Positions 8,101 to 35,708 of a stretch of 44,564 bases of DNA are shown here, piece after piece. Source of the stretch: an uncultured Chitinophagaceae bacterium (lineage in GTDB: Bacteria; Bacteroidota; Bacteroidia; Chitinophagales; LD1); assembly GCA_964605875.1 (NCBI GenBank), contig CAZSEG010000008.1:1-44564 (forward strand), read 5' to 3'. The position numbers and the translations under genes are program-made. How positions within the stretch are numbered: position 1 is the first letter of the stretch; each line of letters starts with the position of its first letter. The notes under the pieces were generated by a model, which was not told where the DNA came from, did not search any database, and worked only from the letters and a program-made list of their open reading frames with translations.

Positions 8101-8925
8101 ATGACCGGAAGAGAGAAAACTATTATTACCGCTGAACCCGATTCGCTGTGGATATACTTGAATAAAATTTGGCAATATCGTTCGCTGATTTTTGTGTTCG
8201 CCAAACGCGACCTGAAAGTGAAATATGCGCAAACGTGGTTAGGCTTGGGCTGGACGATTGTGCAGCCTTTGACAGGATTGCTGATTTTTTCTTTTTTCTT
8301 CGGTTATGTATTGAAATGGCAGGCGGATGGGCTGCCTTATTCGCTGTATGTTTTGTCGGGTTTATTGGGTTGGAATTTTTTCAATTACATTGTCTATCAA
8401 GGCATGAACAGCGTACAGGAATCGGCTCACGTTATCAAGAAAATTTATTTTCCGAAAGCCGTTCTGCCGTTATCGAAAGTTGTGGTAGCTATGGTTGAAT
8501 TGAGTGTCAGTTTTTTGCTGATTATTCCTTTGCTTATTTGGCATGAACAAGCATTGTCATGGCGCATTATTTTTATTCCCGTGATTTTGTTGTTCAATAT
8601 ACTAATTGCTTTGTTTGTTGTTTTTCTCACGGCATCGCTGTCGTACAGAATAAGAGATTTGTTTCATCTTGTTCCCTTTCTGATGTACTTTGGAATATGG
8701 GTAACGCCTGTGTTTTTCACAAAAACCATATTGCCGCAGCAAATTGACTTTATCTGGTATTTCAACCCTATGGCAGCGGTAGTTGAAGGGTGGCGTTGGT
8801 GCTTGTTTTCAGAATGGCAGTATAATTTGTATTTTGTGCCTGCTTTGTTAAGTATTGTTTTGCTGTTTATTTCAGGCTTTTATATGTACAGCAAAGCAGA
8901 AAGTAAATTCAGTGATTTTGCGTGA
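8101..8925 (+). CDS. wzm: ABC-2 type polysaccharide/O-antigen export permease
   Basis: 274 aa. 'FAKRDLKVKYAQTWLGLGWTIVQPL' is the typical Wzm/TagG/KpsM N-terminal signature, followed by six hydrophobic segments. Confidence 0.85.
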   Translation: MTGREKTIITAEPDSLWIYLNKIWQYRSLIFVFAKRDLKVKYAQTWLGLGWTIVQPLTGLLIFSFFFGYVLKWQADGLPYSLYVLSGLLGWNFFNYIVYQGMNSVQESAHVIKKIYFPKAVLPLSKVVVAMVELSVSFLLIIPLLIWHEQALSWRIIFIPVILLFNILIALFVVFLTASLSYRIRDLFHLVPFLMYFGIWVTPVFFTKTILPQQIDFIWYFNPMAAVVEGWRWCLFSEWQYNLYFVPALLSIVLLFISGFYMYSKAESKFSDFA

Positions 8926-9002
8926 GTTTCGATATAGTTATATTTTCCAAATTATATATTCATTTTGCCATCTCGTGAAAGATGAACAAGGCAATGATGC
9001 GC
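8922..9002 (+). pseudogene. Decayed 5' fragment of a wzt gene (duplicate of 11008-11098)
   Basis: GTG at 8922 overlaps the wzm stop (GTGA). 8922-8937 matches 11008-11023 at 12/16 nt, and 8968-9002 matches 11064-11098 at 30/35 nt (hand alignment). 'HLVKDEQGNDA' corresponds to Wzt 'HPLKDEQGNDT'. A frameshift and an in-frame TGA at 8976 interrupt it. Confidence 0.65.
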
Positions 9003-9023
9003 GGGGGGTATTGATGAACATAT

Positions 9024-10904
9024 ATGAAAAACTACTTGAATGAGAAAAAGAAAAAGTTATCAGCTATTGCACTGTTGGGTGTAATAAGTATTACTGCTAT
9101 TCTCTTGATTTTCCCAAATTGGTGGAATAATGCCTCTTTACAAGAATTTAAAAATTGGTATCCTATTTGGGGTCCGCTGATTTATTTCGGAATAAATTAT
9201 TTAATGCCGATATATTTTTGTTTGTGTGTAGTTACTCTATTCATACTTTATTTTAAAGAGTATATAATTTTTCTAAAATCTATTTTCGCAAGATTAAAAA
9301 ATATATGCAATCGTGTTATAAAGTATTTTTCCCAAGATGTTTTGAATGAAAGAAGGTTCGTTGCAGATTTGTTTCTGAAACTTTTAGCCCTTGTTTATTT
9401 AATTGCTTTTGGATCCCTACTTTGGCAGTTTCAGTTGGTTTCTGAAAATGGATTGATTCCTTACAAAGAATTTGCAGAACAAACTTTTTTGTCTGAAGGA
9501 TATACTGCTATTTTAAACTACCCTTCTGTTTTTTGGCTCAACCAATCAAATTGGTTTATTCTGACCGTCCTTTCTCTTTCCTGTGTAATTTCAATAGTCA
9601 GCCTTTTCAAGACAAAAACATTCAATTATTTTTTTCTATGGTTCTTTTATCTCTCAATTGTAACCTTTGGTCGTGATTTGTTTCATTTTCCTTGGGATAC
9701 CTTTCTTTTGGAAATAGGCTTTTTATCCATCTTTTTAGTTTGTTTCACTAAACGGCTTAATCAGTTTCCTCGAATCTTGCTTTTTACTTTTCTTTTATTG
9801 TTTTTCAGGCAATGGCTCTCTATGGGAATTACCAAAATATTATGGGCAGCCCCAACTTGGTATGACCTGACTTATATGAAATATTTCTGGTTAAATCAGC
9901 CAAGTCCTACGCCTGTTGCATGGTATATGTACCAACTGCCTATGCCCTTTCAAAAATTTTTTACGGCAGGAACTTTAATATTTGAAATAGCTATTCCTCT
10001 TGCTATGTTTTTTGGAAGAAAGGGCAGAATTGTGGCATTTTTTATTTCCCTGTTCTTATCTTTTATGATACAATTGAACGGAAATTATGGGTTTTTCAAT
10101 ATCCTCACGGTTATATTAGGGATTTGGTGTTTGGATGATCATTTTTTTAAGCGAAAAAGTAATTTAAGCCTTTCCACCTCGCAGGTTTTTTTAAAACACC
10201 GTTTTTTCAGAACCCTGAACTTTTTGCTGATTTATCTGATTACAGGTTTTAATTTGTTTTATGTCTATTTGCAGTTTGATAAACAATCGAATCATCCTGC
10301 CAATTTTTTAAACTATTATTTTTTTGATAAAAATGTTACACCGCAATCAGGTTTTATCAAACCGGTGTTTTTTGAGATGGGAAAGATAATTTCAAGATTT
10401 AGAATTGTTTCTCCTCATGGAGTGTTTAAATATATTCCCCAAAAGAGAAATTATATTCAAATACAAGTAAAAGTAAGTGAGAATGATTGGCAGAACTTAA
10501 CATTTTCCAAAGGCAGAGATATAATTAACTTTTGTTTTTCTGCACCCATTATGCATCGGTTGTCCTTTAATTTTTATTACCAGTCATACGGGATAGATTT
10601 CTTTCCTTTTTTAAAAATCAACCCAAATTCAAAATATATTAACTCTTGGATGAAAAATTTAATCAATGGTATTTTTGATAACAATAGTGAAATTAGAAAG
10701 CTGATTAGCTATTCTCAAAATGGCAAAGTAGAGCAAATCAGAGTTTTTCAAAATTATATGTATATCCATAAAAATGCAAAGATGCCCTTCCAAGATAATA
10801 GCGTCAAAAATCAAACTATTCGCATATTATATCTAAATCCTTCCGATAAATTTGAAACACCTTTTTTTGCATTTAGCTTAGACAAATTGATAAAGAAAGA
10901 TTGA
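9024..10904 (+). CDS. Polytopic membrane protein, lipase maturation factor (LMF1)-like
   Basis: 626 aa with many TM helices. 'LALVYLIAFGSLLWQFQLVSENGLIPY' and 'FPWDTFLLEIGFLSIF' resemble the LMF1 signature as I recall it (WD..LLE.GFL). The N-terminus carries the locus-specific WYP module. Confidence 0.55.
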   Translation: MKNYLNEKKKKLSAIALLGVISITAILLIFPNWWNNASLQEFKNWYPIWGPLIYFGINYLMPIYFCLCVVTLFILYFKEYIIFLKSIFARLKNICNRVIKYFSQDVLNERRFVADLFLKLLALVYLIAFGSLLWQFQLVSENGLIPYKEFAEQTFLSEGYTAILNYPSVFWLNQSNWFILTVLSLSCVISIVSLFKTKTFNYFFLWFFYLSIVTFGRDLFHFPWDTFLLEIGFLSIFLVCFTKRLNQFPRILLFTFLLLFFRQWLSMGITKILWAAPTWYDLTYMKYFWLNQPSPTPVAWYMYQLPMPFQKFFTAGTLIFEIAIPLAMFFGRKGRIVAFFISLFLSFMIQLNGNYGFFNILTVILGIWCLDDHFFKRKSNLSLSTSQVFLKHRFFRTLNFLLIYLITGFNLFYVYLQFDKQSNHPANFLNYYFFDKNVTPQSGFIKPVFFEMGKIISRFRIVSPHGVFKYIPQKRNYIQIQVKVSENDWQNLTFSKGRDIINFCFSAPIMHRLSFNFYYQSYGIDFFPFLKINPNSKYINSWMKNLINGIFDNNSEIRKLISYSQNGKVEQIRVFQNYMYIHKNAKMPFQDNSVKNQTIRILYLNPSDKFETPFFAFSLDKLIKKD

Positions 10905-11007
10905 CCTAACCCAATAAAATAACTCGTAAATTTTGATGTAACGGGCTTGGGAACTAAAAATGGAAACAATTTGTTATTTTCGTACTTTAATTAGTGATAT
11001 TTGAAAT

Positions 11008-12294
11008 ATGAACTCCGATATAGCCATAAAAGTTGAGCATCTTTCTAAGCTATATTCGCTTCACCATCCCCTGAAAGATGAACAGGGAAATGATACGCAT
11101 GAACTTTGGGCATTAAAAGATGTTTCGTTTGAAATTAAGAAGGGCGAAAGCGTTGGGATTATTGGACCTAACGGCAGCGGCAAAAGCACTTTGCTTAAAA
11201 TACTGGCAGGAGTAACAAAGCCGACATCGGGGAAAGTTGAAATAAACGGCAGGATTGCAAGCATTTTAGATATAGGCGCGGGCTTTCATCCCGAATTGAG
11301 CGGTCGGGAAAATATTTTTCTGAACGGGCAAATACATGGATTCAGTAAAAAAGAAATCCGGTTAAAATTTGATGAAATAGTCGCTTTTTCAGGAATTGAA
11401 AAATTTATTGATGAACCGGTAAAAAATTATTCCAATGGGATGTATTTGCGGTTGGCATTCAGCATTATGGCTCATTTAGATTTTGATATGTATTTGTTTG
11501 ATGAAGTATTTAGCGTGGGGGATACAAAATTCGCTGCTAAAGTCAATGAAAAGATTGATAAAATTATTAATTCAAAGAAAACAATAATACACGTAAGTCA
11601 CAATTTTAACGAATTTCATAATAAAGTTTTATACATTTTAGTTGAAGCCGGAGAAGTGAAAGAACTAAGCAGGAACAGGATGATAATATCTAATTATGTT
11701 GAGCGTAATCTTAATCTGAAAAAAAATGAAATTCTCACCAATGCGATTGAAATAGAGGATTTTTCAACCTTTCCTGAATCAGATGAACTTAAAATTATCA
11801 AGGTTAAGTTTTATCAAAACCAAAAGGACGATAAAGAGCAATTCATAACAAATAAGAGTTTTATCATTGAATTAGAATATGAAAAATTTAAGGACGAAAA
11901 TACCATTGATATTATACTAATAGTATCAGATTATCAGGGAAATCCTATTATTACCTCTACTTCTTTTATTGCGGGAGATTTTAGTAAATGGATTAAAAGG
12001 GGGCGGTATGTTAATCAATGTATTATTCCTTCGAATACTTTTCACTCTCAGCCGTACAAAATTAGTTTCTATTTTGTAAAAAATACAGAGCGTCTTGTTC
12101 TACAATCTATACATAATGAAAATGTTAAAAACCTATATAATGACAATACTATTGACATAGCATTAAAAATATCTGATTTAATATTATTTAAACCGTTGTT
12201 TTTCAAAAATGGAATGCCTGCGGATTTAGGTTCTTTAAATTTGGGAGGTCAAATCCTTTTGGGGTGTGATTGGAAATCAGAAAGCATAGTGTAA
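11008..12294 (+). CDS. wzt: ABC-2 type polysaccharide export ATP-binding protein with C-terminal extension (Wzt_C-like glycan-binding domain)
   Basis: Walker A 'GPNGSGKST', signature-like 'YSNGMYLRLAFS', Walker B 'MYLFDEVFSVGD', H-loop 'HVSHN'. About 180 extra C-terminal residues, as in Wzt proteins that recognise glycan caps. Confidence 0.88.
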   Translation: MNSDIAIKVEHLSKLYSLHHPLKDEQGNDTHELWALKDVSFEIKKGESVGIIGPNGSGKSTLLKILAGVTKPTSGKVEINGRIASILDIGAGFHPELSGRENIFLNGQIHGFSKKEIRLKFDEIVAFSGIEKFIDEPVKNYSNGMYLRLAFSIMAHLDFDMYLFDEVFSVGDTKFAAKVNEKIDKIINSKKTIIHVSHNFNEFHNKVLYILVEAGEVKELSRNRMIISNYVERNLNLKKNEILTNAIEIEDFSTFPESDELKIIKVKFYQNQKDDKEQFITNKSFIIELEYEKFKDENTIDIILIVSDYQGNPIITSTSFIAGDFSKWIKRGRYVNQCIIPSNTFHSQPYKISFYFVKNTERLVLQSIHNENVKNLYNDNTIDIALKISDLILFKPLFFKNGMPADLGSLNLGGQILLGCDWKSESIV

Positions 12295-12365
12295 ATTCGT
12301 CCGGTAAACCTAAGATAGTGAAATCTAAAATAATCAACCTGATTCAACAGGATATTGTTCAAAAA

Positions 12366-13157
12366 ATGTATCTCAATTATAATCGAGTTTGGGATAAACA
12401 GAAAGATTACCCTTATTTAAATTATTTTGGAATAAATTTTGACTTGGAAAGTATATCTTCCATAAAATTTTACTTTCATGTTTTTAGTAAACTGGATGAA
12501 AATATCGTAAAATTATTTTTACCGAAAACTGATGATTTTTTCAACTATTATCATTTGCACGACCTCAAAAAAGTTAATTCAGCATCAGCAGATGATACAG
12601 GTTGTGCTTTTGAGATTAAATTTTACAAGGATAAAAAACACCCTGATATAGGATTTCATTACAGATTGAAGCCGGCACAAGCCTCGTTTGATATTATTGG
12701 ACAGCCAAAAAATCTACCATTTGATGTTTTAACATTAAACACTTCTCCCGGTATAAATTATGAATATAGCAGTGGTGGTCATGTACTAAAGAAAAAATAT
12801 TTCTATTTAAAAGACTCCTCTCATAAAGAGTATTTTTCAAAAAGATTCGGGTATGATTTCCTGCTGTCCGCAGACACAATTGAGTATGCCGAGTCCGATT
12901 ATTTTGCTAAAATTAATACATACTATGGGAATGATTATGACAGCCGAGATAAGGCAAATATTTTTACAGAACCACAAAAAAAATTAATACGGGAATTATG
13001 TGAACAGTTTAATTTAGAAATTACAGGTTTAGGTTATTATGAGCAATCAACTATTAGGTCGGTTTATTTTTTTAGTAAAAATGATACTATACCTATAAGT
13101 TCAACAGAGAAAATTACCCAGTATTATGTGGATACAATTGGCAGATTGATTAAGTAA
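12366..13157 (+). CDS. Hypothetical protein; five Tyr/Phe-rich beta-hairpin repeats (possible PT-barrel/ABBA-like fold)
   Basis: The ORF is open from a TTG at 12270; the first ATG is at 12366. Repeated strand pairs: 'FGINFDL/IKFYFHV', 'AFEIKFY/IGFHYRL', 'GINYEYS/KKYFYLK', 'TIEYAES/AKINTYY', 'GLGYYEQ/IRSVYFFS'. I recognise no family with confidence. Confidence 0.5.
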   Translation: MYLNYNRVWDKQKDYPYLNYFGINFDLESISSIKFYFHVFSKLDENIVKLFLPKTDDFFNYYHLHDLKKVNSASADDTGCAFEIKFYKDKKHPDIGFHYRLKPAQASFDIIGQPKNLPFDVLTLNTSPGINYEYSSGGHVLKKKYFYLKDSSHKEYFSKRFGYDFLLSADTIEYAESDYFAKINTYYGNDYDSRDKANIFTEPQKKLIRELCEQFNLEITGLGYYEQSTIRSVYFFSKNDTIPISSTEKITQYYVDTIGRLIK

Positions 13158-13238
13158 TAAAAAGATGAACTAATAAATAAAGGATATATCATTGCCAAGT
13201 TGCTAAAATAAAGGAGAATTAAAAAAAGGTCAGAAGAA

Positions 13239-14099: not shown

Positions 14100-14123
14100 C
14101 GCGCTACACCGAAATAATACAGT

Positions 14124-16177: not shown

Positions 16178-16180
16178 ACT

Positions 16181-17026: not shown

Positions 17027-17044
17027 GAAAAATCAGGAATTACA

Positions 17045-17052
17045 CAAAACTA
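17045..17052 (-). promoter_or_regulatory. Candidate -7 box (TAgtTTTG on the minus strand) for the methyltransferase-P450 operon
   Basis: The plus strand reads CAAAACTA, which is TAGTTTTG on the minus strand, 19-26 nt upstream of the ATG at 17026. Confidence 0.35.
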
Positions 17053-17137
17053 AGTATAGAAGGCATAATTACAATATAATTCACAACAGTTTCTTACAGA
17101 CTTTCGGCTATTTTTACACTGGTAAAGTATAACAAGC

Positions 17138-19297: not shown

Positions 19298-19348
19298 AAA
19301 GTTAAATCCTTATTTTGTTCTCAGGAATTAAACGCACAACGTTTTTGT

Positions 19349-25662: not shown

Positions 25663-25708
25663 TAGTAAGGGATTGCAACGAAACTAATAAGATGTTTGAA
25701 TTTTCCTA

Positions 25709-25716
25709 TAAATTTG
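25709..25716 (+). promoter_or_regulatory. Candidate -7 box (TAaaTTTG)
   Basis: Exact TAnnTTTG match, 16 nt upstream of the ATG at 25732, in the 69-bp divergent intergenic region. Confidence 0.35.
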
Positions 25717-25731
25717 AAACCTTAATGTTGT

Positions 25732-26937: not shown

Positions 26938-26950
26938 ACAAGAGAATAAA

Positions 26951-27919: not shown

Positions 27920-27920
27920 A

Positions 27921-29750: not shown

Positions 29751-29753
29751 ATC

Positions 29754-31268
29754 ATGAAACCTCATTTAAAGACAATTACTTACCTGTTCCTGCTCAACAT
29801 TTTTTTTGTTGTCTTTTTATTTTTGCTTGGGCACTCGTGGTATATAGCTGAAATGGGAGAAACTGCAAAAACAGCATATCCGCGATTTTATTTTTTGTTT
29901 GTGTTGCTTGGGCAGAACAGTGTTTTTCTTTTTGATTTTTTTTCAATAGCAATTATTCTGCTTAATACCTTTCTTATATTCAAACTAATCTCATTATATC
30001 GTGATAAAGGGACAGCAGTTCTTTTTTTCTGCTCAACAACAGTTGCACTTATGGCAGCGGAATGGACATTGAGAAAAATGGAGTATCTGCCCGGAATGTA
30101 TCCATGGTCTAAATATTCATTCAAACCTGCAGAAAAATTACAAGAGAAGAAAGGTTTTTATGCTGATGAAGACGGCATATTGAAAATTGACAGTACAAGC
30201 CAATTAGAAATAGCTTCAATGATAGTGAAAAATCAAAAAGAATTTGGGATAAACAAAGCAGATGAAGTGTATGAACTGGCAAGCAATTATACAGATGTTT
30301 TAAACAGAATGGCAGACAATGATTTTTCTGAACATTATTTTTCGATAATGCAAAAACCTGAAAATATACGAACGGAATGGGAAGCTGCCATAGTAAATTT
30401 TGTTTGTAACCCGATAAATAAAGATGGATTCAGAAGTATTGAGTTCAAGAGATACAGGTGCTCCAAACCTTCCATATTACTGCTCGGTGATTCTTTTACC
30501 TGGGGGCATACTACTGATAATAAAACCAACTCATTTGCCGATATTTTATTAAGCAAAGGTTTTGTGGTATATAATACAGGAATTACTACAACAGATGTGG
30601 CTCAGTATTTAGCCGTGGCAAAAAAATATATTCCCGAATTATACCCCGATTATGTAGTCGTAAATTTTTATCTCGGCAATGACATTTCTTATTACAAACG
30701 GGAGGTTTTGCCACATCACCCGACATTTTATTGTACTAATAACTATTTACTTGCCTGTCCGCATGGCAAATATCTGAACAAGGAAGAATCTTATCAATTT
30801 GCATTGGCATATAATCAAGTGCCGTCTAACGAAAAAAGTATAGTGGATAGACTATTGATAAAAACCGTAGTCGGAACACTATTGATGTGGCGTTGCTCAA
30901 ATATTGATTTGGTTCCTTACCTGACACATTGTAATTCAGGAATCCACAGAGGAATTTTGACACCTTATTTCCAAGAAGCTGAAAAACGGAAATACCCGAC
31001 ACCGTACTGCAATCAAGAGTTACAACAAATAAAAAACATAGCCGAGCAGCACAATTCTAAATTTATTTTGTCATCTATTCCCGATTTCAGTACCGGGTCG
31101 TTGAAAACGACAAAGGACTTTCCTGATTTGTTTACAGGAATGGAGTATGTAGAAATGAACGTGAGGCGGGCAGATTACGAATTGGGGAGTGGAATACATT
31201 TTAATGAGGCGGGTCATAAAAAGTATGCGGAATTTTTGGACAGCTTAATACGAAACTCTCAATACTAA
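29754..31268 (+). CDS. Membrane-anchored SGNH/GDSL-family hydrolase or acyltransferase
   Basis: 504 aa with N-terminal TM helices. Block I 'LLLGDSFTWGH', block II 'NTGITTTD', block III 'NFYLGNDI', block V-like 'GIHFNEAGHKKYAEFL'. Confidence 0.65.
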   Translation: MKPHLKTITYLFLLNIFFVVFLFLLGHSWYIAEMGETAKTAYPRFYFLFVLLGQNSVFLFDFFSIAIILLNTFLIFKLISLYRDKGTAVLFFCSTTVALMAAEWTLRKMEYLPGMYPWSKYSFKPAEKLQEKKGFYADEDGILKIDSTSQLEIASMIVKNQKEFGINKADEVYELASNYTDVLNRMADNDFSEHYFSIMQKPENIRTEWEAAIVNFVCNPINKDGFRSIEFKRYRCSKPSILLLGDSFTWGHTTDNKTNSFADILLSKGFVVYNTGITTTDVAQYLAVAKKYIPELYPDYVVVNFYLGNDISYYKREVLPHHPTFYCTNNYLLACPHGKYLNKEESYQFALAYNQVPSNEKSIVDRLLIKTVVGTLLMWRCSNIDLVPYLTHCNSGIHRGILTPYFQEAEKRKYPTPYCNQELQQIKNIAEQHNSKFILSSIPDFSTGSLKTTKDFPDLFTGMEYVEMNVRRADYELGSGIHFNEAGHKKYAEFLDSLIRNSQY

Positions 31269-32563
31269 TGATAAAAAACGTAATCATATTAATCATATCT
31301 TTTCTTGTTATCAGCTTTTTTTTGTTGCTTGGGAAATTGATTTCAGAGCGTTATTTTATATCAACAAATATTTTAAACTGGTATAAAATCTTTATTTGTT
31401 TTATTTCAATCGGGGGAGCATATTTTATTTACAAAGCGGAATTTTTAAATAAGGAATTATTCTTTAAAGGATTTATTTTCTGTTTTTTGTTTTTATTTTT
31501 TGAATTGCTTTTCACATACATTATTGATTACAAAAAATATTATGGAATAACTATTCACGGAAAGGAAATAGGATATGATTTAAAATTACAACAACAAACT
31601 TATGCAGACAGTGCGGGAATAAACAAATTTATTAATGATAAAAATACGCCTCTTGGATATATCATTAACAAGGAAGGATTTAGCTCGCGATACGAATTTA
31701 CAAAACAGGTTGCGGACTCGTTGAAAAGAATTTCAAAAGTAATTATGTTCATTGGCGATTCACATACCGAAGGCTATTGTGCAGACCCGATAACTCACTC
31801 ATTTACAAATTTAATTGATCAAAATAAAAATTTCAGTGCGTTAAATGTTGGAGTAGGCGGCACTGACCCGCTGCAATACAAGCTGATTGCAGAACAGTAT
31901 ATTCCAAAGCTATTGCCCGATATGGTAATTGTAGCGCTGTGTTTGGATAATGATTTTATGCATTACGACAGAAAACCTGCTCCGTTGCAACCATTACACT
32001 TTCAAACAAATTACAACTGGTTGAACGCAACCCTTCCCGAATCACATCCCGATTTTGCGCCTGATAAATATTTTGAAAATTGGGATGCCGCAAAATCATA
32101 TTATCTTGAGAATTATACCATTACAGGAAAAGATATTCATTTGCTCGAAAAAATATTTATCATTCCATCAAATTTCAACAGCTTTTTGTATTACTTGTCA
32201 ACGGCATTAAAAAAGTATTTCAATCTGAAAAAATCAATTGAAAAATACGGCAAAAACATATCCGTAAATTTTAAATTATCAGACAATGATATTACCTACC
32301 GTCATTTGACAACTATTCGTGAAATATGCAAAGAGCAGAAAGTTGATTTTAAATTATTCGGTGTGCCTACAATAAAAGATATGGCATTAAATCAGGATTC
32401 AGTTTATTTAAAATATCAGACGGTTTTGAAAGATTTGCATTTGTATTATCCCCGCAATTTTGTGAGCAATGATTTTGTAAGCGAACGTAATGACCATTTT
32501 AATAATAAAGGGCATGAAAAATTTGCGGAATTTCTTGACAGCATAATTTCGGACTATGAGTAA
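31268..32563 (+). CDS. Membrane-anchored SGNH/GDSL-family hydrolase or acyltransferase (paralogue)
   Basis: 431 aa, with ATG overlapping the previous stop (TAATG). 'IMFIGDSHTEGY', 'NVGVGGTD', 'CLDNDF', 'NDHFNNKGHEKFAEFLDSII'. The C-terminus parallels the preceding ORF. Confidence 0.65.
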   Translation: MIKNVIILIISFLVISFFLLLGKLISERYFISTNILNWYKIFICFISIGGAYFIYKAEFLNKELFFKGFIFCFLFLFFELLFTYIIDYKKYYGITIHGKEIGYDLKLQQQTYADSAGINKFINDKNTPLGYIINKEGFSSRYEFTKQVADSLKRISKVIMFIGDSHTEGYCADPITHSFTNLIDQNKNFSALNVGVGGTDPLQYKLIAEQYIPKLLPDMVIVALCLDNDFMHYDRKPAPLQPLHFQTNYNWLNATLPESHPDFAPDKYFENWDAAKSYYLENYTITGKDIHLLEKIFIIPSNFNSFLYYLSTALKKYFNLKKSIEKYGKNISVNFKLSDNDITYRHLTTIREICKEQKVDFKLFGVPTIKDMALNQDSVYLKYQTVLKDLHLYYPRNFVSNDFVSERNDHFNNKGHEKFAEFLDSIISDYE

Positions 32564-33548
32564 TCCATATTTGTCAATAGTATTGGTAGGGCGTAATGAT
32601 AATTACGGTGGCGATTTTAGGGAGCGTTTGCAAATGTGCATATCCGGTTTGTTCGAGCAGTTAAATCGTTTCCGGATTCATTCGGAAATTATTTTTGTCA
32701 ATTACAATCCTTTACCGGAACCGGATATTAAAGATTTTATTGCTTGGCACAAATCAACCGATTATGTTTCAATTCGTATCATAACAGTTCCTTCTGAAGT
32801 CCATGAAAAATTTGTTTTGAAGCACGGAATAAAAAACGTTCCGGTGAATGAATATCTTGGAAAAAACGCAGGAATAAGAAGAAGCAAAGGTGAATATATT
32901 TTATGTATGAATCCTGACATTTTGTTTCCTGACGAACTCGTAAAATATGTTTTAAAAGGATTGCAACAGTGTTATTTTTACCGTGCAAACAGAATTGATT
33001 TTGATTTTGTTGACGGAAAAAAACAATTGCTGCGCATTAATTTGAAAGGACATTCTCCCAAAATTCAAATTTACTCAGAATGGGCTACTTGGTTCTTAAA
33101 TTTGAAATATGCTTTTATCAATTGGTATATGATCAATTCAGTCAGGATAGAAAAGTTTTTAAATCGCATCAAAAAGCCGGTTTTTTATGATAATGCCGAA
33201 CTTCGTTTTCACTGCAAAACCAGTGGAGATTTTATGTTGATGCACCATTCACATTGGATGGCAACAGAAGGTTATTTTGAAACTTCCGCTATCGCACTTC
33301 ACATAGATTCATTATTTGTCATTCAAACTGCAATGTATGGTTTAAAGGAAAAGGTTATTAAATTTCCTATTTACCACAGAGAGCATGAAAGAAGATTTAC
33401 CGCAAACAATGATAATCCCGAAGAACTTGATGCCTATAAGCGTTTTCAACATGAAGCACAGATGATGCTCAAACAGAAGAAGAATAAAATATTTAATCAA
33501 AATAATTGGGGATTGATTGACTTGACATTACCCGAAATTAATTCATAG
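32556..33548 (+). CDS. GT-A fold glycosyltransferase (GT2-like)
   Basis: 330 aa. 'LSIVLVGRNDNYGGDF', 'NAGIRRSKGEYILCMNPDILF', 'GDFMLMHHSHWMATEGY'. Overlaps the upstream gene by 8 nt. Confidence 0.65.
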   Translation: MSNPYLSIVLVGRNDNYGGDFRERLQMCISGLFEQLNRFRIHSEIIFVNYNPLPEPDIKDFIAWHKSTDYVSIRIITVPSEVHEKFVLKHGIKNVPVNEYLGKNAGIRRSKGEYILCMNPDILFPDELVKYVLKGLQQCYFYRANRIDFDFVDGKKQLLRINLKGHSPKIQIYSEWATWFLNLKYAFINWYMINSVRIEKFLNRIKKPVFYDNAELRFHCKTSGDFMLMHHSHWMATEGYFETSAIALHIDSLFVIQTAMYGLKEKVIKFPIYHREHERRFTANNDNPEELDAYKRFQHEAQMMLKQKKNKIFNQNNWGLIDLTLPEINS

Positions 33549-33549
33549 C

Positions 33550-34599
33550 ATGAAGTATTATTTATCTATTGTCGCAACATCACGCAATGATAATCATGGA
33601 GGCGACCTGATACAACGGACAAGTGCCTTTGTGAACAGCGTGTTTGTTCAGGCAAAAAAATGGAATTTTCCGGTTGAATTGATATTGGTGGAATGGAACC
33701 CACCGGAAGAAAATGTTTTATTGCACGAAGTGCTTCCGAAACCGCAACAGGATGATTTGGTTACATTAAAATATGTTGTTGTTCCCCGCGAAATTCATAA
33801 CAAATACATAGGCGCAAAAAAAATTCCGCTTTACCAGATGATAGCAAAAAATGCAGGTATCAGAAGAGCGGATGGTGAATATATTTTATGTACCAATATT
33901 GATATTATTTTTTCAGACGAGTGTTTTCAGATATTTGCAGAAAGGAAATTTCAGCCGAATAATTTTTATAGGGCAAACAGGTGTGATATTCCCAAAGAAG
34001 TAATGGAAATAGAAGATTTTAATAACAGCTTGCAATATGCCCGCGAAAATATTTTAAACAGATTGGGAAAAGCACCCGGACATGAAACTTTGGCTTTACC
34101 CCGGTTTGTATATTTCTTTCCCAACCTTTCTCGTTTTATCAACTACTTTATTTTAAAACTCTGGAAAGCGACTCATAAAAATAAATTCCCCCATTTTTTA
34201 ATTGATTTTGATGCTTGTGGTGATTTTACTTTAATGAGTAAGCAAGACTGGATGGATATTGAAGGATATGTAGAATTAGATATGTATTCTATTCATGTTG
34301 ACAGCATGGCATTATGGGCTGCTGCTGCATTGGGTAAAAAGCAAATCATTTTTCCGTACAAAGCCTGCGTTTATCATATTGACCATGAAAACGGATGGGA
34401 AAGTGAAGATATACTGAAAACTATAAAATTTTTGGAGTCCAAATCCTGCTTGGATTATTCTATTGTACACAAAGGCGGACTGTATATTGTTGAAAGAAAA
34501 CAGCATTGGAACTTGAACAAACCCGATTGGGGTTTTGCCAACGAAAAGTTTAAAGAATATATTTTCGCGCCCGGAAAAGAAATGACAGAAATAAATTGA
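33550..34599 (+). CDS. GT-A fold glycosyltransferase (GT2-like), tandem paralogue
   Basis: 349 aa. 'LSIVATSRNDNHGGDL', 'NAGIRRADGEYILCTNIDIIF', 'GDFTLMSKQDWMDIEGY'. Confidence 0.65.
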   Translation: MKYYLSIVATSRNDNHGGDLIQRTSAFVNSVFVQAKKWNFPVELILVEWNPPEENVLLHEVLPKPQQDDLVTLKYVVVPREIHNKYIGAKKIPLYQMIAKNAGIRRADGEYILCTNIDIIFSDECFQIFAERKFQPNNFYRANRCDIPKEVMEIEDFNNSLQYARENILNRLGKAPGHETLALPRFVYFFPNLSRFINYFILKLWKATHKNKFPHFLIDFDACGDFTLMSKQDWMDIEGYVELDMYSIHVDSMALWAAAALGKKQIIFPYKACVYHIDHENGWESEDILKTIKFLESKSCLDYSIVHKGGLYIVERKQHWNLNKPDWGFANEKFKEYIFAPGKEMTEIN

Positions 34600-35708
34600 T
34601 GGCAAAAACAGGAATTATAGGAATCGGTAAGCTCGGAATATGCTTTGCTTTGAATTTGGAAAAAGCGGGTTATAGTGTGGTTGGCGTTGATATAGATGAA
34701 AATTATATCGCACAACTCAACGAAAAAAAAATAATTTCTTCCGAACCATTGGTTGAGGAATATTTAATCCAATCAAAAAATTTCACTGCATCGGTAAATA
34801 TCAGTGATGTTGTAAATGATGATACGGATATTATTTTCATCATGGTCGCTACGCCTTCATTGCCCGATGGCAGTTATGACCATTCGCAGGTAGAAAAAGT
34901 AACAAATGAACTGATTGCTTTCGGCAAAAGAAATATCACGGTTGATATAGTTATAGGCTGCACGGTGATGCCCGGATATTGCAATGCTTTGTCGGAAAAA
35001 TTGAAAAAATATAATTACAGGATAAGCTATAATCCTGAATTTATTGCGCAGGGTTCAATTATTAAAAATCAACAATATCCCGACCAAATATTAGTAGGCG
35101 AAGCGAATAAAGAAGCCGGAGATAAAATTGAAGCCGTTTTAAAATCTTTCTGTAAAAATGAGCCTGCTGTTTGCAGAATGAATTTGCTTAGCGCAGAAAT
35201 TGCCAAACTTGCCACGAATTGTTTTTTAACTGCAAAAATTTCATTTGCCAATTCAATCGGAGATTTAGCCATTAAAGCAGGAGCGGATGCGGATAAAATC
35301 TTAAATGCCGTTGGCGCAGATTCGAGAATCGGTAAAAAATACCTGAATTACGGCTTTGGCTTTGGCGGACCTTGTTTTCCGCGCGATAACCGTGCATTGA
35401 ATTTATTCGCTTCGCAAAATAATTATGAACTGCTCATCAGTTCCGCAACCGATGAAATAAATAAAAGGCATCTGGCTTTTCAGGTTGAACAATATTTAAA
35501 ACAATATGCCGAAGACGAAACAATAATCTTTGATTATGTTACTTACAAAAAAGATTCCGTTTTGTTGGAAGAATCGCAGCAACTTTCCTTAGCCGTGCAA
35601 TTGGCGAAGGCAGGCAGGAAAATAACTATAAAAGAAAGACCCGAAGTAATTACGCTGCTTGAAAAGAATTATCCGAATTTGTTTATTTGGGAGAATACAA
35701 ACTCGTAG
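34599..35708 (+). CDS. Nucleotide-sugar 6-dehydrogenase (UDP-glucose/GDP-mannose dehydrogenase family)
   Basis: The ATG at 34599 overlaps the previous TGA. Rossmann N-terminus 'GIIGIGKLGICFALNL', 'NPEFIAQGS', catalytic Cys loop 'GFGGPCFPRD'. Short for the family (369 aa). Confidence 0.8.
   Translation: MAKTGIIGIGKLGICFALNLEKAGYSVVGVDIDENYIAQLNEKKIISSEPLVEEYLIQSKNFTASVNISDVVNDDTDIIFIMVATPSLPDGSYDHSQVEKVTNELIAFGKRNITVDIVIGCTVMPGYCNALSEKLKKYNYRISYNPEFIAQGSIIKNQQYPDQILVGEANKEAGDKIEAVLKSFCKNEPAVCRMNLLSAEIAKLATNCFLTAKISFANSIGDLAIKAGADADKILNAVGADSRIGKKYLNYGFGFGGPCFPRDNRALNLFASQNNYELLISSATDEINKRHLAFQVEQYLKQYAEDETIIFDYVTYKKDSVLLEESQQLSLAVQLAKAGRKITIKERPEVITLLEKNYPNLFIWENTNS

What the first reader, a model, noticed from the sequence alone, without database searches (positions are those of the whole stretch)
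8101..35708. Hybrid accessory locus: Wzm/Wzt glycan-export genes combined with a terpenoid-type oxidative tailoring block and HTTM/LMF membrane proteins
Seen: about 27 kb and about 24 ORFs in five tightly packed blocks, with many 1-8 nt overlaps. Three gene sets co-occur.
(a) ABC-transporter-dependent glycan genes: wzm, wzt with a C-terminal extension, two GT-A enzymes, a GT4 domain, a GDP-mannose 3,5-epimerase homologue, a sugar dehydrogenase and two SGNH proteins.
(b) Enzymes usually seen in terpenoid or secondary-metabolite clusters: two P450s (one fused to a DxDDTA domain), two PhyH oxygenases, a SAM methyltransferase, a radical SAM enzyme, a UbiA prenyltransferase and a possible PT-barrel protein.
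(c) Two HTTM paralogues, an LMF1-like protein and two transglutaminase-fold proteins.
I recognise no Wzx/Wzy, no WecA/WbaP-type initiating transferase, no P450 redox partner and no prenyl-diphosphate synthase in the window.
Inference: the locus makes a heavily tailored glycoconjugate. One possibility is a glycan built on, or capped by, an oxidised, cyclised or methylated prenyl moiety, with the UbiA-GT4 fusion possibly replacing a classical initiating enzyme. I know of no described pathway with this composition.
Basis: partly seen in the sequence, partly recalled or inferred. Interest (0 to 1): 0.85.

Follow-up and report, generated by a model that had tools for sequence, protein, structure and literature searches.

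The report
Glycan-export locus with built-in terpenoid module
A 27-kb gene cluster for an ABC-exported surface sugar polymer also carries a prenyltransferase, a terpene-cyclase-like domain and several oxygenases; the same combination recurs in dozens of related bacteria, which points to an undescribed sugar-terpenoid surface molecule.

Summary
Positions 8101-35708 carry 21 tightly packed genes in five strand blocks. They include wzm/wzt, a GDP-mannose 3,5-epimerase homologue, a sugar dehydrogenase, GT4 and GT2-like enzymes, two P450s, two PhyH oxygenases, a CMAS-type methyltransferase, a radical SAM enzyme, a UbiA-GT4 fusion, an LMF1-like protein and two HTTM-like proteins.

The domain fused to the P450 models confidently as a single-barrel (beta-only) class II terpene cyclase. 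Its closest solved structure is drimenol synthase, and its DxDD motif is invariant.

In 31 related Bacteroidota loci the cyclase domain sits within 10 kb of UbiA (29), PhyH (28), wzm (22) and wzt (21). Elsewhere the cyclase domain is fused directly to UbiA, PhyH or P450, again beside wzm/wzt.

The window is therefore not an idiosyncratic hybrid. It is one variant of a conserved, uncharacterised family of ABC-transporter-dependent glycoconjugate loci with an isoprenoid-tailoring module.

The product is unknown. Whether the terpenoid is a lipid anchor or a chain-end cap cannot be decided here. The PT-barrel and transglutaminase labels remain unverified. I found no published description of such a system.

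The parts
2809..5610 (+). GT-C-like multi-pass membrane protein with a C-terminal TPR domain.
   Evidence: About 18 hydrophobic segments and an NDYNMDDE loop after TM1. TPR hits. Aligns over residues 33-867 with proteins that flank the cassette in 16 related loci (E 2e-78); these carry PMT_2 hits. GC 0.33-0.36, like the locus.
8101..8925 (+). Wzm: ABC-2 permease.
   Evidence: PF01061 at 39 bits; weak KpsM/Wzm NCBIfam hits. Homologues in 22 of 31 related loci.
9024..10904 (+). LMF1-like polytopic membrane protein.
   Evidence: PF06762, 6.6e-39. Orthologues in L006 and L019 next to P450-TC and UbiA-GT4.
11008..12294 (+). Wzt ATPase with a C-terminal domain of about 190 aa (about 11728-12294).
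   Evidence: ABC_tran; TagH and Wzt are the top NCBIfam hits. The C-terminal domain is conserved at 20-33% identity in 13 related loci. The only PDB hits of its profile are two standalone ~150-residue 'ABC transporter' chains (6O14, 8DKY), which I recall to be the Aquifex Wzt carbohydrate-binding domain; E is 0.3, so not significant.
12270..13157 (+). Soluble protein of unknown fold.
   Evidence: No Pfam or NCBIfam hit. Orthologue in L006. The same domain forms the N-terminal half of 526-535-aa TylF-type methyltransferases in L003, L007 and L010.
13239..14099 (+). PhyH-type Fe(II)/2OG oxygenase with a canonical HxD motif.
   Evidence: PF05721, 1.4e-22; HQD motif.
14124..15002 (+). PhyH-type protein from the conserved orthologue group that has HQN in place of HxD.
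   Evidence: PF05721, 4.4e-15. 44-59% identical orthologues in 19 loci, all with HQNW.
14999..16177 (-). Stand-alone cytochrome P450.
   Evidence: PF00067, 4.7e-25. ExxR motif and Cys loop are visible in the translation.
16181..17026 (-). SAM methyltransferase of the CMAS / cyclopropane-fatty-acid-synthase type.
   Evidence: PF02353, 1e-17; NCBIfam CFA synthase, 1.3e-17. Orthologues in L001, L005, L009, L021, L037 and L038.
17138..19297 (+). Fusion of a cytochrome P450 (aa 1 to about 380) with a beta-only class II terpene-cyclase-like domain (aa 381-719; DNA about 18278-19297). DIDD is at aa 483-486.
19349..20764 (+). Radical SAM enzyme with an N-terminal twitch/SPASM-like domain.
   Evidence: NF033640 at 164 bits (cut-off 170). 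Radical_SAM and SPASM Pfam hits. Homologues in L023-L026.
20761..23064 (+). Fusion of a UbiA prenyltransferase (aa about 1-360) with a GT4 glycosyltransferase (aa about 450-745).
   Evidence: Pfam. NDxxDxxxD and HQxxDxxxD motifs are conserved. 14 clusters of full-length fusion homologues.
23058..24851 (+). HTTM-like polytopic membrane protein, paralogue 1. Its start overlaps the end of UbiA-GT4 by 7 nt.
   Evidence: 33% identical to paralogue 2. Family evidence.
24820..25662 (-). Predicted lipoprotein of unknown function.
   Evidence: Signal peptide plus Cys. No family hit. No homologue in the related loci.
25732..26937 (+). Membrane-anchored protein with a Cys...His...Asp motif. It may be the counterpart of the F12 family of the canonical cassettes.
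   Evidence: No family hit. hhalign to F12 over the C/H/D region is weak, E 0.006.
26951..27919 (+). GDP-mannose 3,5-epimerase homologue.
   Evidence: 292 bits to 2C59.
27900..29750 (+). HTTM-like polytopic membrane protein, paralogue 2.
   Evidence: More than 150 homologues, some with PF05090 or named HTTM/VKGC. Sits directly after UbiA-GT4 in L032, L037 and L038.
29754..31268 (+). Membrane-anchored SGNH/GDSL hydrolase or acyltransferase 1.
   Evidence: Sub-threshold GDSL hits. GDS and HFNxxGH motifs. Homologues in L006, L019, L020 and L032.
31268..32563 (+). Membrane-anchored SGNH/GDSL protein 2.
   Evidence: As for SGNH protein 1.
32556..33548 (+). GT2-like (GT-A) glycosyltransferase a.
   Evidence: Sub-threshold PF00535 hit. 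Tandem paralogue of the next gene. The pair is conserved in L006, L032, L037 and L038.
33550..34599 (+). GT2-like (GT-A) glycosyltransferase b.
34596..35708 (+). UDP-glucose/GDP-mannose dehydrogenase family enzyme.
   Evidence: PF03721 and PF00984. Conserved at the same position in L006, L032, L037 and L038.
38155..39234 (+). ManC-type mannose-1-phosphate guanylyltransferase. This is a core flank gene and a likely precursor supplier, not part of the island.
   Evidence: Pfam. Also present next to RecQ in the relative L034, which lacks the locus.

Best explanation
The window holds one variant of a conserved family of ABC-transporter-dependent (Wzm/Wzt) glycoconjugate loci that contain an isoprenoid-tailoring module. 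This family is found in Bacteroidota and, as fused versions, in other metagenomic contigs of undetermined taxonomy.

Proposed course; only the gene content, the fold and the linkage are shown, and every step below is inferred.
1. Sugar supply. GDP-mannose from ManC is epimerised by the GME homologue to GDP-L-galactose or GDP-L-gulose. The dehydrogenase makes a uronic acid.
2. Prenyl transfer and glycosylation. At the cytoplasmic face of the inner membrane, the UbiA half of the UbiA-GT4 fusion attaches a prenyl chain, taken from a housekeeping prenyl diphosphate, to an acceptor. The fused GT4 half glycosylates that product or makes its acceptor. The result is a prenyl-linked glycoside.
3. Remodelling of the prenyl chain. 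The beta-only class II cyclase domain protonates a C=C bond through the middle Asp of DIDD (D485) and cyclises the chain. The fused P450, the second P450 and the PhyH oxygenases hydroxylate it. The CMAS-type methyltransferase C-methylates an olefin. The role of the radical SAM enzyme is open.
4. Chain extension. The GT2-like pair extends the glycan.
5. Export. Wzm/Wzt exports the finished molecule, and the Wzt C-terminal domain reads a defined end structure.
6. Outer-face steps. On the outer face, the membrane-anchored HTTM-like, LMF1-like, SGNH and Cys/His/Asp proteins modify the product, and the GT-C-like/TPR protein transfers or decorates it.

Whether the terpenoid is the lipid end (primer or anchor) or the distal cap that licenses export is unresolved. 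I rate the two as about equally likely.
For: Fold and motif:
- The AF2 model of aa 381-719 has pLDDT 90.
- Its best PDB match by Foldseek is the AsDMS drimenol synthase cyclase domain (TM 0.69-0.71, E 5e-8). Next come the small SHC-like cyclases, MstE and the copalyl-PP and drimenyl-PP synthases.
- D483, D485 and D486 are invariant in 34 fusion homologues.
- The middle Asp is kept in at least 133 of 141 family representatives.
- PMC12232559 states that the middle Asp of DxDD is the general acid, and that AsDMS and MstE are the beta-only class II cyclases.

Linkage:
- Of 31 related loci, 29 have UbiA, 28 PhyH, 22 wzm and 21 wzt within 10 kb. Gene order is conserved across Flavobacteriales, Chitinophagales and Saprospiraceae at 30-47% protein identity.
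- Rosetta-stone fusions exist: PhyH+TC, UbiA+TC+TPR, UbiA+TC+PhyH, TC+UbiA and TC+P450. Two of these multi-domain genes sit beside wzm plus a wzt with a true Wzt_C domain and multi-domain GTs.

UbiA:
- The UbiA catalytic motifs are intact.

Synteny:
- The window is collinear with L006 (wzt, unk295, PhyH genes, P450-TC, LMF1, UbiA-GT4, GME, SGNH, GT2x, UGDH).
- UbiA-GT4, HTTM, GME, the GT2x pair, UGDH, PMT_2, wzt, PhyH and the CMAS MT recur in L032, L037 and L038.

Chemistry:
- The cyclase, the CMAS-type MT, the P450s and the PhyH proteins all belong to families whose characterised members act on olefinic or aliphatic lipid chains. That statement is family knowledge.
Against: - There is no chemical or genetic evidence. 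All relatives are MAGs or metagenomic contigs.
- The cyclase domain has no significant sequence match to any solved cyclase and no Pfam hit of its own. The assignment rests on a predicted fold plus a motif.
- L032, L037 and L038 carry the UbiA-GT4/HTTM core without a P450-cyclase gene in the +/-10 kb seen. Cyclisation is therefore dispensable for at least some variants.
- The prenyl acceptor is unknown.
- The window has no P450 redox partner.
- PhyH oxygenases also occur in ordinary carbohydrate clusters (weak TIGR04324 hit), so they need not act on the isoprenoid.
- Nine loci lacked wzm within 10 kb, although several of these are cut by contig ends.
Confidence: 0.55

Rival explanations
1. Glycosylated meroterpenoid or terpenoid small molecule. 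The locus is a natural-product cluster. UbiA prenylates a small acceptor, the cyclase, P450s, PhyH proteins and MT tailor it, the GTs add one or a few sugars, and the ABC-2 pair acts as a DrrAB/NodIJ-type exporter rather than a polysaccharide transporter.
For: UbiA plus a beta-only class II cyclase is the logic of the MstE merosterolic-acid pathway (PMC12232559; PMC12324236). P450s, a methyltransferase and a radical SAM enzyme are typical tailoring enzymes. The drrA subfamily is among the Wzt NCBIfam hits. The window has no OPX/PCP, ligase or initiating transferase.
Against: The best NBD hits are TagH and Wzt (157-167 bits against 99 for DrrA). A conserved C-terminal Wzt domain is present, and true Wzt_C domains occur in the fused-gene loci. 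Several GTs, multi-domain polymerase-like GTs (L035), TylF methyltransferase arrays, an EPS-type amidotransferase and a GT-C-like/TPR protein recur. These are hallmarks of polymer assembly.
Confidence: 0.17
2. Known three-component side-chain system. UbiA is a polyprenyl-phosphate phosphoribosyltransferase that makes Und-P-ribofuranose. SDR enzymes epimerise it, and the GT-C enzyme adds the pentofuranose to the Wzm/Wzt-exported O-polysaccharide in the periplasm. This follows Citrobacter youngae O1/O2 and mycobacterial arabinan. The terpenoid-type enzymes would then be unrelated tailoring enzymes.
For: A UbiA-family enzyme, a GT-C-like protein, SDRs and wzm/wzt co-occur. The described precedent is in PMC11127046. 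The UbiA profile does hit DPPRS 8J8J at E 0.002.
Against: The DPPRS hit covers only the N-terminal 110 residues and is weaker than the hits to DGGGP synthase and chlorophyll synthase (1.5e-5 each). The single sequence gives no PDB hit at all, whereas ORF15 is 31% identical to DPPRS. The Pfam and NCBIfam scans of the locus ORFs gave no hit to a phosphoribose phosphatase or a MATE/SMR flippase. This model does not explain the fusions of UbiA to a cyclase and PhyH or to GT4.
Confidence: 0.12
3. Two or more independent pathways lie side by side in a variable region. One is a glycan locus and the other a terpenoid or other cluster, with no shared product.
For: The locus has five strand blocks. It is an island of low GC that is absent next to RecQ in a close relative. 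Gene content varies between relatives.
Against: The same juxtaposition is kept at 30-47% identity across several families, with conserved order. It also appears in fused genes next to wzm/wzt in unrelated contigs. Terpenoid-type and glycan genes are interleaved, with 4-8 nt overlaps (rSAM / UbiA-GT4 / HTTM).
Confidence: 0.06
4. Peptide (RiPP-like) modification system. The radical SAM enzyme, the P450s, the PhyH proteins, an HTTM gamma-carboxylase-like enzyme and Cys/His/Asp proteases mature a peptide that the ABC transporter exports.
For: Characterised HTTM enzymes (GGCX, MloH) carboxylate peptide-bound residues. The radical SAM enzyme has a twitch/SPASM-like domain. The best P450 NCBIfam hit is to the cyclodipeptide-associated group.
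Against: There is no room for a precursor ORF next to the radical SAM gene; the gap is 51 nt. The AsnB-like protein of the canonical cassettes is a true glutamine-hydrolysing Asn synthase / EPS amidotransferase (463 bits, above cut-off) and not a lasso cyclase (223 against 525). The radical SAM enzyme is in only 4 of 31 loci. Sugar-nucleotide and GT genes dominate.
Confidence: 0.03

Closest known systems
Beta-only class II terpene cyclases: AsDMS drimenol synthase (Aquimarina spongiae) and MstE merosterolic acid synthase (Scytonema)
   Same: A single alpha/alpha-barrel domain of about 330-350 aa. The best structural matches have TM 0.69-0.71 to AsDMS and 0.6 to MstE. A DxDD-type general-acid motif sits at the start of a barrel helix. 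As with MstE, it is partnered with a UbiA-type prenyltransferase.
   Different: There is no significant sequence similarity. It is fused to a P450 (or PhyH, or UbiA) rather than to a HAD phosphatase. It sits in wzm/wzt glycan loci rather than in a terpenoid cluster. Substrate and product are unknown.
ABC-transporter-dependent O-polysaccharide pathways with terminal capping (E. coli O8/O9a WbdD plus the Wzt carbohydrate-binding domain; Aquifex aeolicus Wzm/Wzt)
   Same: A Wzm/Wzt pair, with Wzt carrying an extra C-terminal domain. Cytoplasmic GTs, no Wzx/Wzy, and methyltransferases next to wzt. In distant relatives the UbiA-cyclase-PhyH protein carries coiled-coil and TPR segments, which recalls the ruler-type terminators.
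   Different: Known caps are methyl, phosphomethyl or Kdo. No known system contains a prenyltransferase, a terpene cyclase or P450s. The Wzt C-terminal domain here is not recognised by Pfam Wzt_C.
Three-component pentofuranose side-chain systems (Kelly et al. 2024, PMC11127046) and the mycobacterial arabinogalactan cluster (Rv3806c UbiA/DPPRS, DprE1/E2, GT-C arabinosyltransferases, Wzm/Wzt)
   Same: A UbiA-superfamily enzyme, a GT-C-type membrane enzyme, SDRs and Wzm/Wzt in one glycan locus.
   Different: The UbiA here is not of the DPPRS subfamily. No phosphatase or small flippase is present. A cyclase, P450s, PhyH proteins and a CMAS-type MT are present, and UbiA is fused to GT4.
HTTM / vitamin K-dependent carboxylase family (GGCX; bacterial MloH) and LMF1
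   Same: Polytopic membrane proteins of this superfamily. The LMF1 hit is strong, and the HTTM assignment holds through homologues. The cofactor of GGCX is a product of a UbiA-family enzyme, and here the HTTM-like gene overlaps the end of the UbiA-GT4 gene.
   Different: There is no detectable match to the GGCX sequences in the PDB. The context is a glycan locus. The function is unknown.

Membership tests
ABC-transporter-dependent (Wzm/Wzt) polysaccharide pathway | ABC-2 permease (Wzm) and a cognate ATPase (Wzt) encoded together | tested here: met
   PF01061 and PF00005. TagH and Wzt are the best NCBIfam hits, at 157-167 bits but below the equivalog cut-offs.
ABC-transporter-dependent (Wzm/Wzt) polysaccharide pathway | Wzt C-terminal carbohydrate-binding domain (Pfam Wzt_C) in cap-dependent systems | tested here: inconclusive
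   A C-terminal domain of about 190 aa is present and conserved in relatives. It has no Pfam hit. The profile hits only 6O14 and 8DKY, which I recall to be the Aquifex Wzt carbohydrate-binding domain, at E 0.3. Wzt_C is faint in L037 and clear in L035 and L036.
ABC-transporter-dependent (Wzm/Wzt) polysaccharide pathway | No Wzx flippase or Wzy polymerase; cytoplasmic glycosyltransferases build the chain | tested here: met
   No Wzx/Wzy-type family was found on the locus ORFs. A GT4 domain and two GT2-like proteins are present.
ABC-transporter-dependent (Wzm/Wzt) polysaccharide pathway | Polyprenyl-phosphate-linked primer made by a PNPT or PGT initiating enzyme (it may be encoded elsewhere) | tested here: not met
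   None is in the window. No recurrent family of that kind is in the related loci. Genome-wide absence could not be tested.
Class II terpene cyclase (beta-only type) | alpha/alpha-barrel beta-domain fold | tested here: met
   AF2 pLDDT 90, pTM 0.91. Foldseek gives AsDMS at E 5e-8 and TM 0.69-0.71, and the next 30 hits are almost all class II cyclases. This is a predicted structure, not a solved one.
Class II terpene cyclase (beta-only type) | DxDD motif with a strictly conserved middle Asp (general acid) | tested here: met
   DIDD at aa 483-486. It is invariant in 34 homologues. The middle Asp is kept in at least 133 of 141 representatives.
Class II terpene cyclase (beta-only type) | Sequence membership in the Pfam SQHop_cyclase or Prenyltrans families | tested here: not met
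   The window protein has no Pfam hit and no PDB sequence hit. Distant fused family members give only sub-threshold hits.
Class II terpene cyclase (beta-only type) | Protonation-initiated cyclisation of an isoprenoid substrate | not testable with these tools
   This needs an enzyme assay.
UbiA prenyltransferase superfamily | Pfam UbiA above the gathering score and two Asp-rich motifs | tested here: met
   49.8 bits against 34.2. NDxxDxxxD and DxxxD are invariant in 19-26 homologues.
Polyprenyl-phosphate phosphoribosyltransferase (DPPRS/PPPRS) subfamily and the three-component pentofuranose system | UbiA enzyme close to Rv3806c/ORF15 (about 30% identity) | tested here: not met
   phmmer gives no hit. 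The profile gives E 0.002 over the N-terminal 110 residues only, which is weaker than the DGGGPS and ChlG hits.
Polyprenyl-phosphate phosphoribosyltransferase (DPPRS/PPPRS) subfamily and the three-component pentofuranose system | Phosphoribose phosphatase and a MATE/SMR flippase in the locus | tested here: not met
   The Pfam and NCBIfam scans of the locus and most flank ORFs gave no such hit.
Polyprenyl-phosphate phosphoribosyltransferase (DPPRS/PPPRS) subfamily and the three-component pentofuranose system | GT-C glycosyltransferase (GT136) | tested here: inconclusive
   A GT-C-like/TPR protein lies at 2809-5610. Its relatives hit PMT_2. Membership in GT136 was not tested.
HTTM (PF05090) / LMF1 (PF06762) | Pfam match | tested here: inconclusive
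   LMF1 is met for 9024-10904 (134 bits). HTTM is not detected on 23058-24851 or 27900-29750, but homologues at 33-43% identity carry PF05090. The profile finds no GGCX chain in the PDB.
GDP-mannose 3,5-epimerase | Full-length similarity to characterised GME | tested here: met
   292 bits, E 6e-86 to 2C59, residues 4-321. Activity was not tested.
Fe(II)/2-oxoglutarate oxygenase (PhyH) | HxD/E...H facial triad | tested here: inconclusive
   PhyH1 has HQD...H. PhyH2 and all 19 of its orthologues have HQN...H.
ABBA (PT-barrel) prenyltransferase | Recognisable family or fold match for 12270-13157 | tested here: not met
   No Pfam or NCBIfam hit. The domain is fused to TylF methyltransferases in relatives, which does not suggest a prenyltransferase.
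Transglutaminase-like cysteine protease fold | Family or fold match, Cys-His-Asp triad | tested here: inconclusive
   There are no family hits. 25732-26937 shares a C...H...D stretch with family F12 of the canonical cassettes at hhalign E 0.006. 24820-25662 shows nothing.

The most novel reading that the evidence does not exclude
Many Bacteroidota, and some other bacteria, make a class of surface glycoconjugate that has not been described. It would be an ABC-exported glycan covalently joined to a cyclised, hydroxylated and methylated terpenoid, built in situ by a UbiA / beta-only-cyclase / PhyH / P450 module. The terpenoid would serve either as a dedicated lipid anchor or primer that replaces the usual undecaprenyl-diphosphate start, or as the non-reducing-end cap that the Wzt C-terminal domain reads to license export and set chain length.
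Probability: 0.35. Interest if true: 0.9.

Novelty: new variant of a known kind. Interest (0 to 1): 0.78.

Why it matters
If the inferred link is chemical as well as genomic, it joins two fields that have been studied apart: terpenoid cyclisation and cell-surface polysaccharide export.

- It would give a function to a large orphan family of single-domain class II cyclase-like proteins (905 clusters at 50% identity).
- It would add a new kind of terminal or anchoring group to the ABC-transporter-dependent pathway.
- It could give bacterial HTTM/LMF1-type membrane proteins a testable role.
- It would add a new type of lipid-glycan surface structure in abundant environmental Bacteroidota, of interest as a possible antigen or biomarker.

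The hypothesis can be tested directly once a cultured carrier is found.

Tried and rejected
- An exact-sequence look-up of the fusion protein found no contig.
- Foldseek with the full-length model returned only P450s. The C-terminal domain had to be folded separately.
- Sequence searches of the cyclase domain and of its profile against the PDB gave nothing meaningful.
- The UbiA domain alone gave no PDB hit.
- The HTTM-family profile gave no PDB hit, not even GGCX.
- hhalign of the HTTM family against LMF1 aligned only a short N-terminal motif, not the cores.
- I considered a lasso-peptide or RiPP reading of the AsnB-like plus Cys/His/Asp pair in the canonical cassettes and rejected it. The AsnB-like protein scores as a true Asn synthase / EPS amidotransferase.
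- I considered the three-component pentofuranose reading and rated it low.
- There is no tRNA, no Rfam family and no island-flanking repeat. Sigma-70-type promoter and terminator scans are at background level and do not suit Bacteroidota anyway.
- Literature searches for a terpene cyclase or UbiA together with Wzm/Wzt found no description of such a system.
- Source names gave no organism for the window.

Full report
**1. What is in the sequence**

The window is a complete 44,564-base contig from an NCBI metagenome-assembled genome; the identical proteins are on record with a contig of that length. Between 8101 and 35708 there are 21 ORFs of at least 200 aa in five strand blocks. Most junctions overlap by 1-8 nt or are separated by 1-3 nt. 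GC is 0.31-0.38 in the locus and 0.41-0.44 in the flanks. The flanks are housekeeping genes: a gyrA-like topoisomerase, an aminotransferase and thioredoxin on the left, and RecQ, ManC, an HD protein and LpxD on the right. A genome whose RecQ clusters at 90% identity or more keeps ManC next to RecQ but has unrelated genes where the window has the locus (L034). The locus therefore behaves as a variable island. No tRNA, Rfam family or flanking repeat marks its ends.

**2. Check of the gene labels**

Confirmed by Pfam, NCBIfam or PDB sequence searches:
- Wzm.
- Wzt with a C-terminal extension of about 190 aa.
- An LMF1-like protein (6.6e-39).
- Two PhyH oxygenases.
- Two P450s with intact ExxR motifs and Cys loops.
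- A CMAS-type SAM methyltransferase.
- A radical SAM enzyme with an N-terminal twitch domain (NF033640, 164 bits against a cut-off of 170).
- A UbiA-GT4 fusion.
- A GDP-mannose 3,5-epimerase homologue (292 bits to 2C59).
- A UDPG/GDP-Man dehydrogenase.

Supported only weakly:
- The two GT2-like proteins give sub-threshold hits. They are tandem paralogues.
- The two SGNH proteins give sub-threshold hits but carry the GDS and block-V motifs.

Supported only through homologues: the two 'HTTM' paralogues have no Pfam hit at E <= 0.1. Members of their large family at 33-43% identity carry PF05090 or are named HTTM / vitamin K-dependent gamma-carboxylase or DoxX by their sources.

Not verified: the PT-barrel label of 12270-13157 and the transglutaminase fold of 24820-25662 and 25732-26937.

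**3. The DxDDTA domain**

The 719-aa fusion has about 36 full-length homologues at 33-47% identity, all from Bacteroidota MAGs or metagenomes. V480, P481, D483, D485 and D486 are invariant.

An AlphaFold2 model of residues 381-719, built on 20 homologues, has pLDDT 90 and pTM 0.91. Foldseek against the PDB gave these matches:
- First, the cyclase domain of drimenol synthase AsDMS from the flavobacterium Aquimarina spongiae (E 5e-8, TM 0.69-0.71).
- Then a 334-aa Actinoplanes protein, small SHC-like cyclases, MstE, squalene-hopene cyclase, and copalyl- and drimenyl-diphosphate synthases.

AsDMS and MstE are the two characterised class II cyclases that consist of a beta domain only, and the middle Asp of DxDD is the general acid (PMC12232559; PMC12324236). 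At the sequence level the domain matches no solved structure and no Pfam family. The assignment therefore rests on predicted fold plus motif.

A profile search of 1.84 billion representatives found 905 clusters at E <= 1e-3, of which 453 are at E <= 1e-10. Most are stand-alone proteins of 330-360 aa. The middle Asp is kept in at least 133 of the 141 best representatives that cover the motif.

**4. Is the co-occurrence with wzm/wzt more than chance?**

I collected 31 related loci by exact look-up and by a scan of one genome per GTDB species. They come from Flavobacterium, Chryseobacterium, Fluviicola, Vicingaceae, Chitinophagaceae, Saprospiraceae and unclassified Bacteroidia.

BLAST and clustering of their ORFs show the following families within 10 kb of the cyclase domain:

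| Family | Loci (of 31) |
|---|---|
| UbiA | 29 |
| PhyH | 28 |
| AsnB-type amidotransferase | 27 |
| GT-A-like protein (F4) | 26 |
| wzm | 22 |
| wzt | 21 |
| GT-C-like/TPR protein | 16 |

Several of the loci that lack wzm or wzt are cut by contig ends. The gene order is conserved:

wzm - wzt - methyltransferases - PhyH - SDR - P450/cyclase - UbiA - F12 - AsnB - SDR - F4 - F15 - F14 - GT8-like - PhyH - GT-C/TPR

In Saprospiraceae the cyclase domain is a separate gene without the P450.

Gene fusions give independent evidence (Pfam):
- PhyH+cyclase (P0261, P0320).
- UbiA+cyclase+TPR (P0289).
- UbiA+cyclase+PhyH, with or without TPR (P0290, P0294).
- Cyclase+UbiA (P0331).
- Cyclase+P450 in the reverse order (P0333, P0351).
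- Several of these give sub-threshold SQHop_cyclase_C or Prenyltrans hits.

The loci of P0294 and P0289 also contain wzm, a wzt with a clear Wzt_C domain, multi-domain GT4/GT2 proteins, and an AMP-binding enzyme plus thioesterase. Chance juxtaposition is therefore very unlikely.

**5. Where the window sits in this family**

The window belongs to a variant shared with L006 and L019 (Chryseobacterium MAGs), L020 (a Chitinophagaceae MAG), and L032, L037 and L038. In this variant:
- UbiA is fused to GT4. There are 14 clusters of full-length fusion homologues.
- An HTTM-like gene follows the fusion directly. In the window it overlaps by 7 nt.
- Next come the GME homologue, the GT2-like pair and the dehydrogenase.
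- wzt, several PhyH genes (4 to about 10 per locus), a CMAS-type methyltransferase, SGNH proteins and a PMT_2-type GT-C protein complete the set.
- L006 is almost collinear with the window.
- L032, L037 and L038 lack a P450-cyclase gene in the 20 kb seen, so cyclisation is an optional layer in this variant.

The canonical cassettes have a small membrane protein pair (F14, F15) that aligns weakly with the core and the C-terminal YPFSxYPxY motif of the HTTM-like family (BLAST E 0.002-0.004; hhalign E 1.4e-4 and 0.01). The HTTM-like component is therefore probably general.

The window's 933-aa protein at 2809-5610 aligns over residues 33-867 with the GT-C/TPR proteins of the cassettes. It has the low GC of the locus, so it probably belongs to the system even though three unrelated-looking genes separate it from wzm.

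**6. What the UbiA enzyme is not**

A described system combines a UbiA-family enzyme, a GT-C enzyme and Wzm/Wzt. It is the three-component pathway for periplasmic pentofuranose side chains, related to mycobacterial arabinan synthesis (PMC11127046). There the UbiA enzyme is a polyprenyl-phosphate phosphoribosyltransferase that is 31% identical to Rv3806c.

Here the evidence points away from that subfamily:
- The single UbiA domain gives no PDB hit at all.
- A profile of 19 homologues hits DGGGP synthase and chlorophyll synthase at 1.5e-5. It hits DPPRS only at 0.002, over the N-terminal 110 residues.
- No phosphoribose phosphatase or MATE/SMR flippase is present.
- That model gives no role to the cyclase, the P450s or the CMAS-type methyltransferase, and it does not explain the fusions.

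I keep it as a rival at low probability.

**7. Most likely mechanism**

Shown:
- The gene content.
- The predicted cyclase fold and its motif.
- The intact UbiA and P450 motifs.
- The conserved linkage and the fusions.

Inferred:
- UbiA attaches a prenyl chain from a housekeeping prenyl diphosphate to an acceptor at the cytoplasmic membrane face.
- The fused GT4 glycosylates the product or makes the acceptor.
- The cyclase domain protonates a C=C through D485 and cyclises the chain.
- The P450s and PhyH oxygenases hydroxylate it, and the CMAS-type methyltransferase C-methylates an olefin.
- The GT2-like pair extends a glycan from GDP-L-Gal or GDP-L-Gul and a uronic acid.
- Wzm/Wzt exports the molecule.
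- The membrane-anchored HTTM-like, LMF1-like, SGNH and Cys/His/Asp proteins and the GT-C-like/TPR protein act on the outer face.

The argument that the tailoring enzymes act on the isoprenoid is by family. Class II cyclases, CMAS-type methyltransferases, P450s and PhyH have characterised members that work on olefinic or aliphatic lipid chains, and three of them are found fused to UbiA or to the cyclase.

Anchor or cap?
- For an anchor or primer: UbiA is membrane-embedded, it is fused to a GT4 (a family that often acts on lipid acceptors), and no initiating transferase recurs in any of the loci.
- For a cap: almost all loci have a Wzt with a conserved C-terminal domain. The only PDB hits of its profile are two standalone 'ABC transporter' chains that I recall to be the Aquifex Wzt carbohydrate-binding domain, at a non-significant E of 0.3. 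The fused UbiA-cyclase-PhyH proteins carry coiled-coil-like and TPR segments that recall the ruler-type terminators WbdD and WbbB. That comparison rests on my own knowledge, and the coiled-coil hits are weak.
- I cannot decide between the two.

**8. Rivals**

- A glycosylated meroterpenoid small molecule with a DrrAB-like exporter. This is plausible from the UbiA plus MstE-like logic, but it fits poorly with the polymer-type gene set.
- The three-component pentofuranose system (section 6).
- Independent neighbouring pathways. The conservation and the fusions argue against this.
- A RiPP-like system. There is no room for a precursor gene, the AsnB-like protein of the canonical cassettes is a true Asn synthase / EPS amidotransferase, and the radical SAM enzyme is in only 4 of 31 loci.

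**9. Novelty**

Full-text searches for terpene cyclase or UbiA together with Wzm, Wzt or O-antigen, and for MstE-type cyclases in Flavobacteria, found no description of this association. A recent survey of cyclase evolution mentions uncharacterised MstE-clade homologues in many phyla, Bacteroidota included, but gives them no function or context.

The parts are of known kinds. The combination, its breadth and the fusions are new as far as I can tell. I classify it as a new variant of a known kind, the ABC-transporter-dependent glycoconjugate pathway. There is a substantial chance that the product is a new class of molecule.

**10. Limits**

- Everything is computational.
- All relatives are uncultured.
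- The cyclase assignment depends on a predicted structure.
- The loci were seen only to +/-10 kb.
- The related loci are not phylogenetically independent, although they reach down to 30% protein identity.

Noticed in passing
window 9024-10904 (aa 32-60), 23058-24851 (aa about 50-62), 27900-29750 (aa 53-70), 25732-26937 (aa 23-42); weaker in 29754-31268: At least four otherwise unrelated membrane proteins of the locus share an N-terminal module: TM1, about 10 residues, then [FY]-x-x-W-[YF]-P-x-[FW], then TM2. The four are the LMF1-like protein, both HTTM-like proteins and the Cys/His/Asp protein; SGNH protein 1 may be a fifth. This was the only stretch that hhalign aligned between the HTTM and LMF1 families (E 2.5e-4). 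It may be a common anchor or an assembly or targeting element.
   Followed up: partly
window 14124-15002 (motif at aa about 108-111) and its orthologues in 19 related loci: The most conserved PhyH orthologue group has an invariant HQN where the Fe(II)-binding HxD of the facial triad should be. All other PhyH paralogues in these loci keep HQD. This suggests an atypical metal site or altered chemistry.
   Followed up: partly
window 2809-5610: A 933-aa GT-C-like membrane protein with C-terminal TPR repeats and locus-like low GC lies 2.5 kb upstream of wzm. It is the homologue of proteins that flank the cassette in 16 related loci.
   Followed up: yes
P0289, P0290, P0294 (loci L035 10001-14413; L036 2002-4941): There are giant multi-domain proteins of the form (PhyH-)UbiA-cyclase-PhyH followed by coiled-coil-like and TPR segments. 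They lie next to wzm, a wzt with Wzt_C, multi-GT proteins, and an AMP-binding enzyme plus thioesterase. The architecture recalls the coiled-coil chain-length terminators of O-antigen pathways.
   Followed up: partly
L037 1-9664 and L038 1-9968: Loci of the UbiA-GT4 variant carry 7 to about 10 PhyH paralogues, some fused to each other or to a CMAS-type methyltransferase. That is an unusual density of Fe/2OG oxygenases for a single pathway.
   Followed up: no
It is more likely a partner domain of glycan methylation than a prenyltransferase.
   Followed up: partly
L034 (GCA_006365075.1 contig VFQQ010000002.1, 714073-736277): A genome whose RecQ clusters at 90% identity or more with the window's has ManC beside RecQ, as the window does. 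On the other side it has DUF2400, PrsW, a GT2, YHS, DoxX_2 and other genes instead of the 27-kb locus. The locus is strain- or species-variable.
   Followed up: partly
window 32861-32935 and 33846-33920: The two GT2-like genes are tandem paralogues. They share a 75-nt stretch at 77% identity around the DxD-type motif.
   Followed up: no
window 19349-20764: In the radical SAM enzyme, the twitch/SPASM-like Cys-rich domain (aa 44-106) comes before the radical SAM core (aa 141-286). It scores 164 bits on NF033640, just under the cut-off of 170. Homologues occur only in the Saprospiraceae-type loci L023-L026.
   Followed up: no
window 34596-35708: The sugar dehydrogenase is short (370 aa). It matches only the N-terminal and central UDPG_MGDP_dh domains and gives no hit for the C-terminal domain. 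The 364-aa orthologues in L037 and L038 show the same pattern.
   Followed up: no
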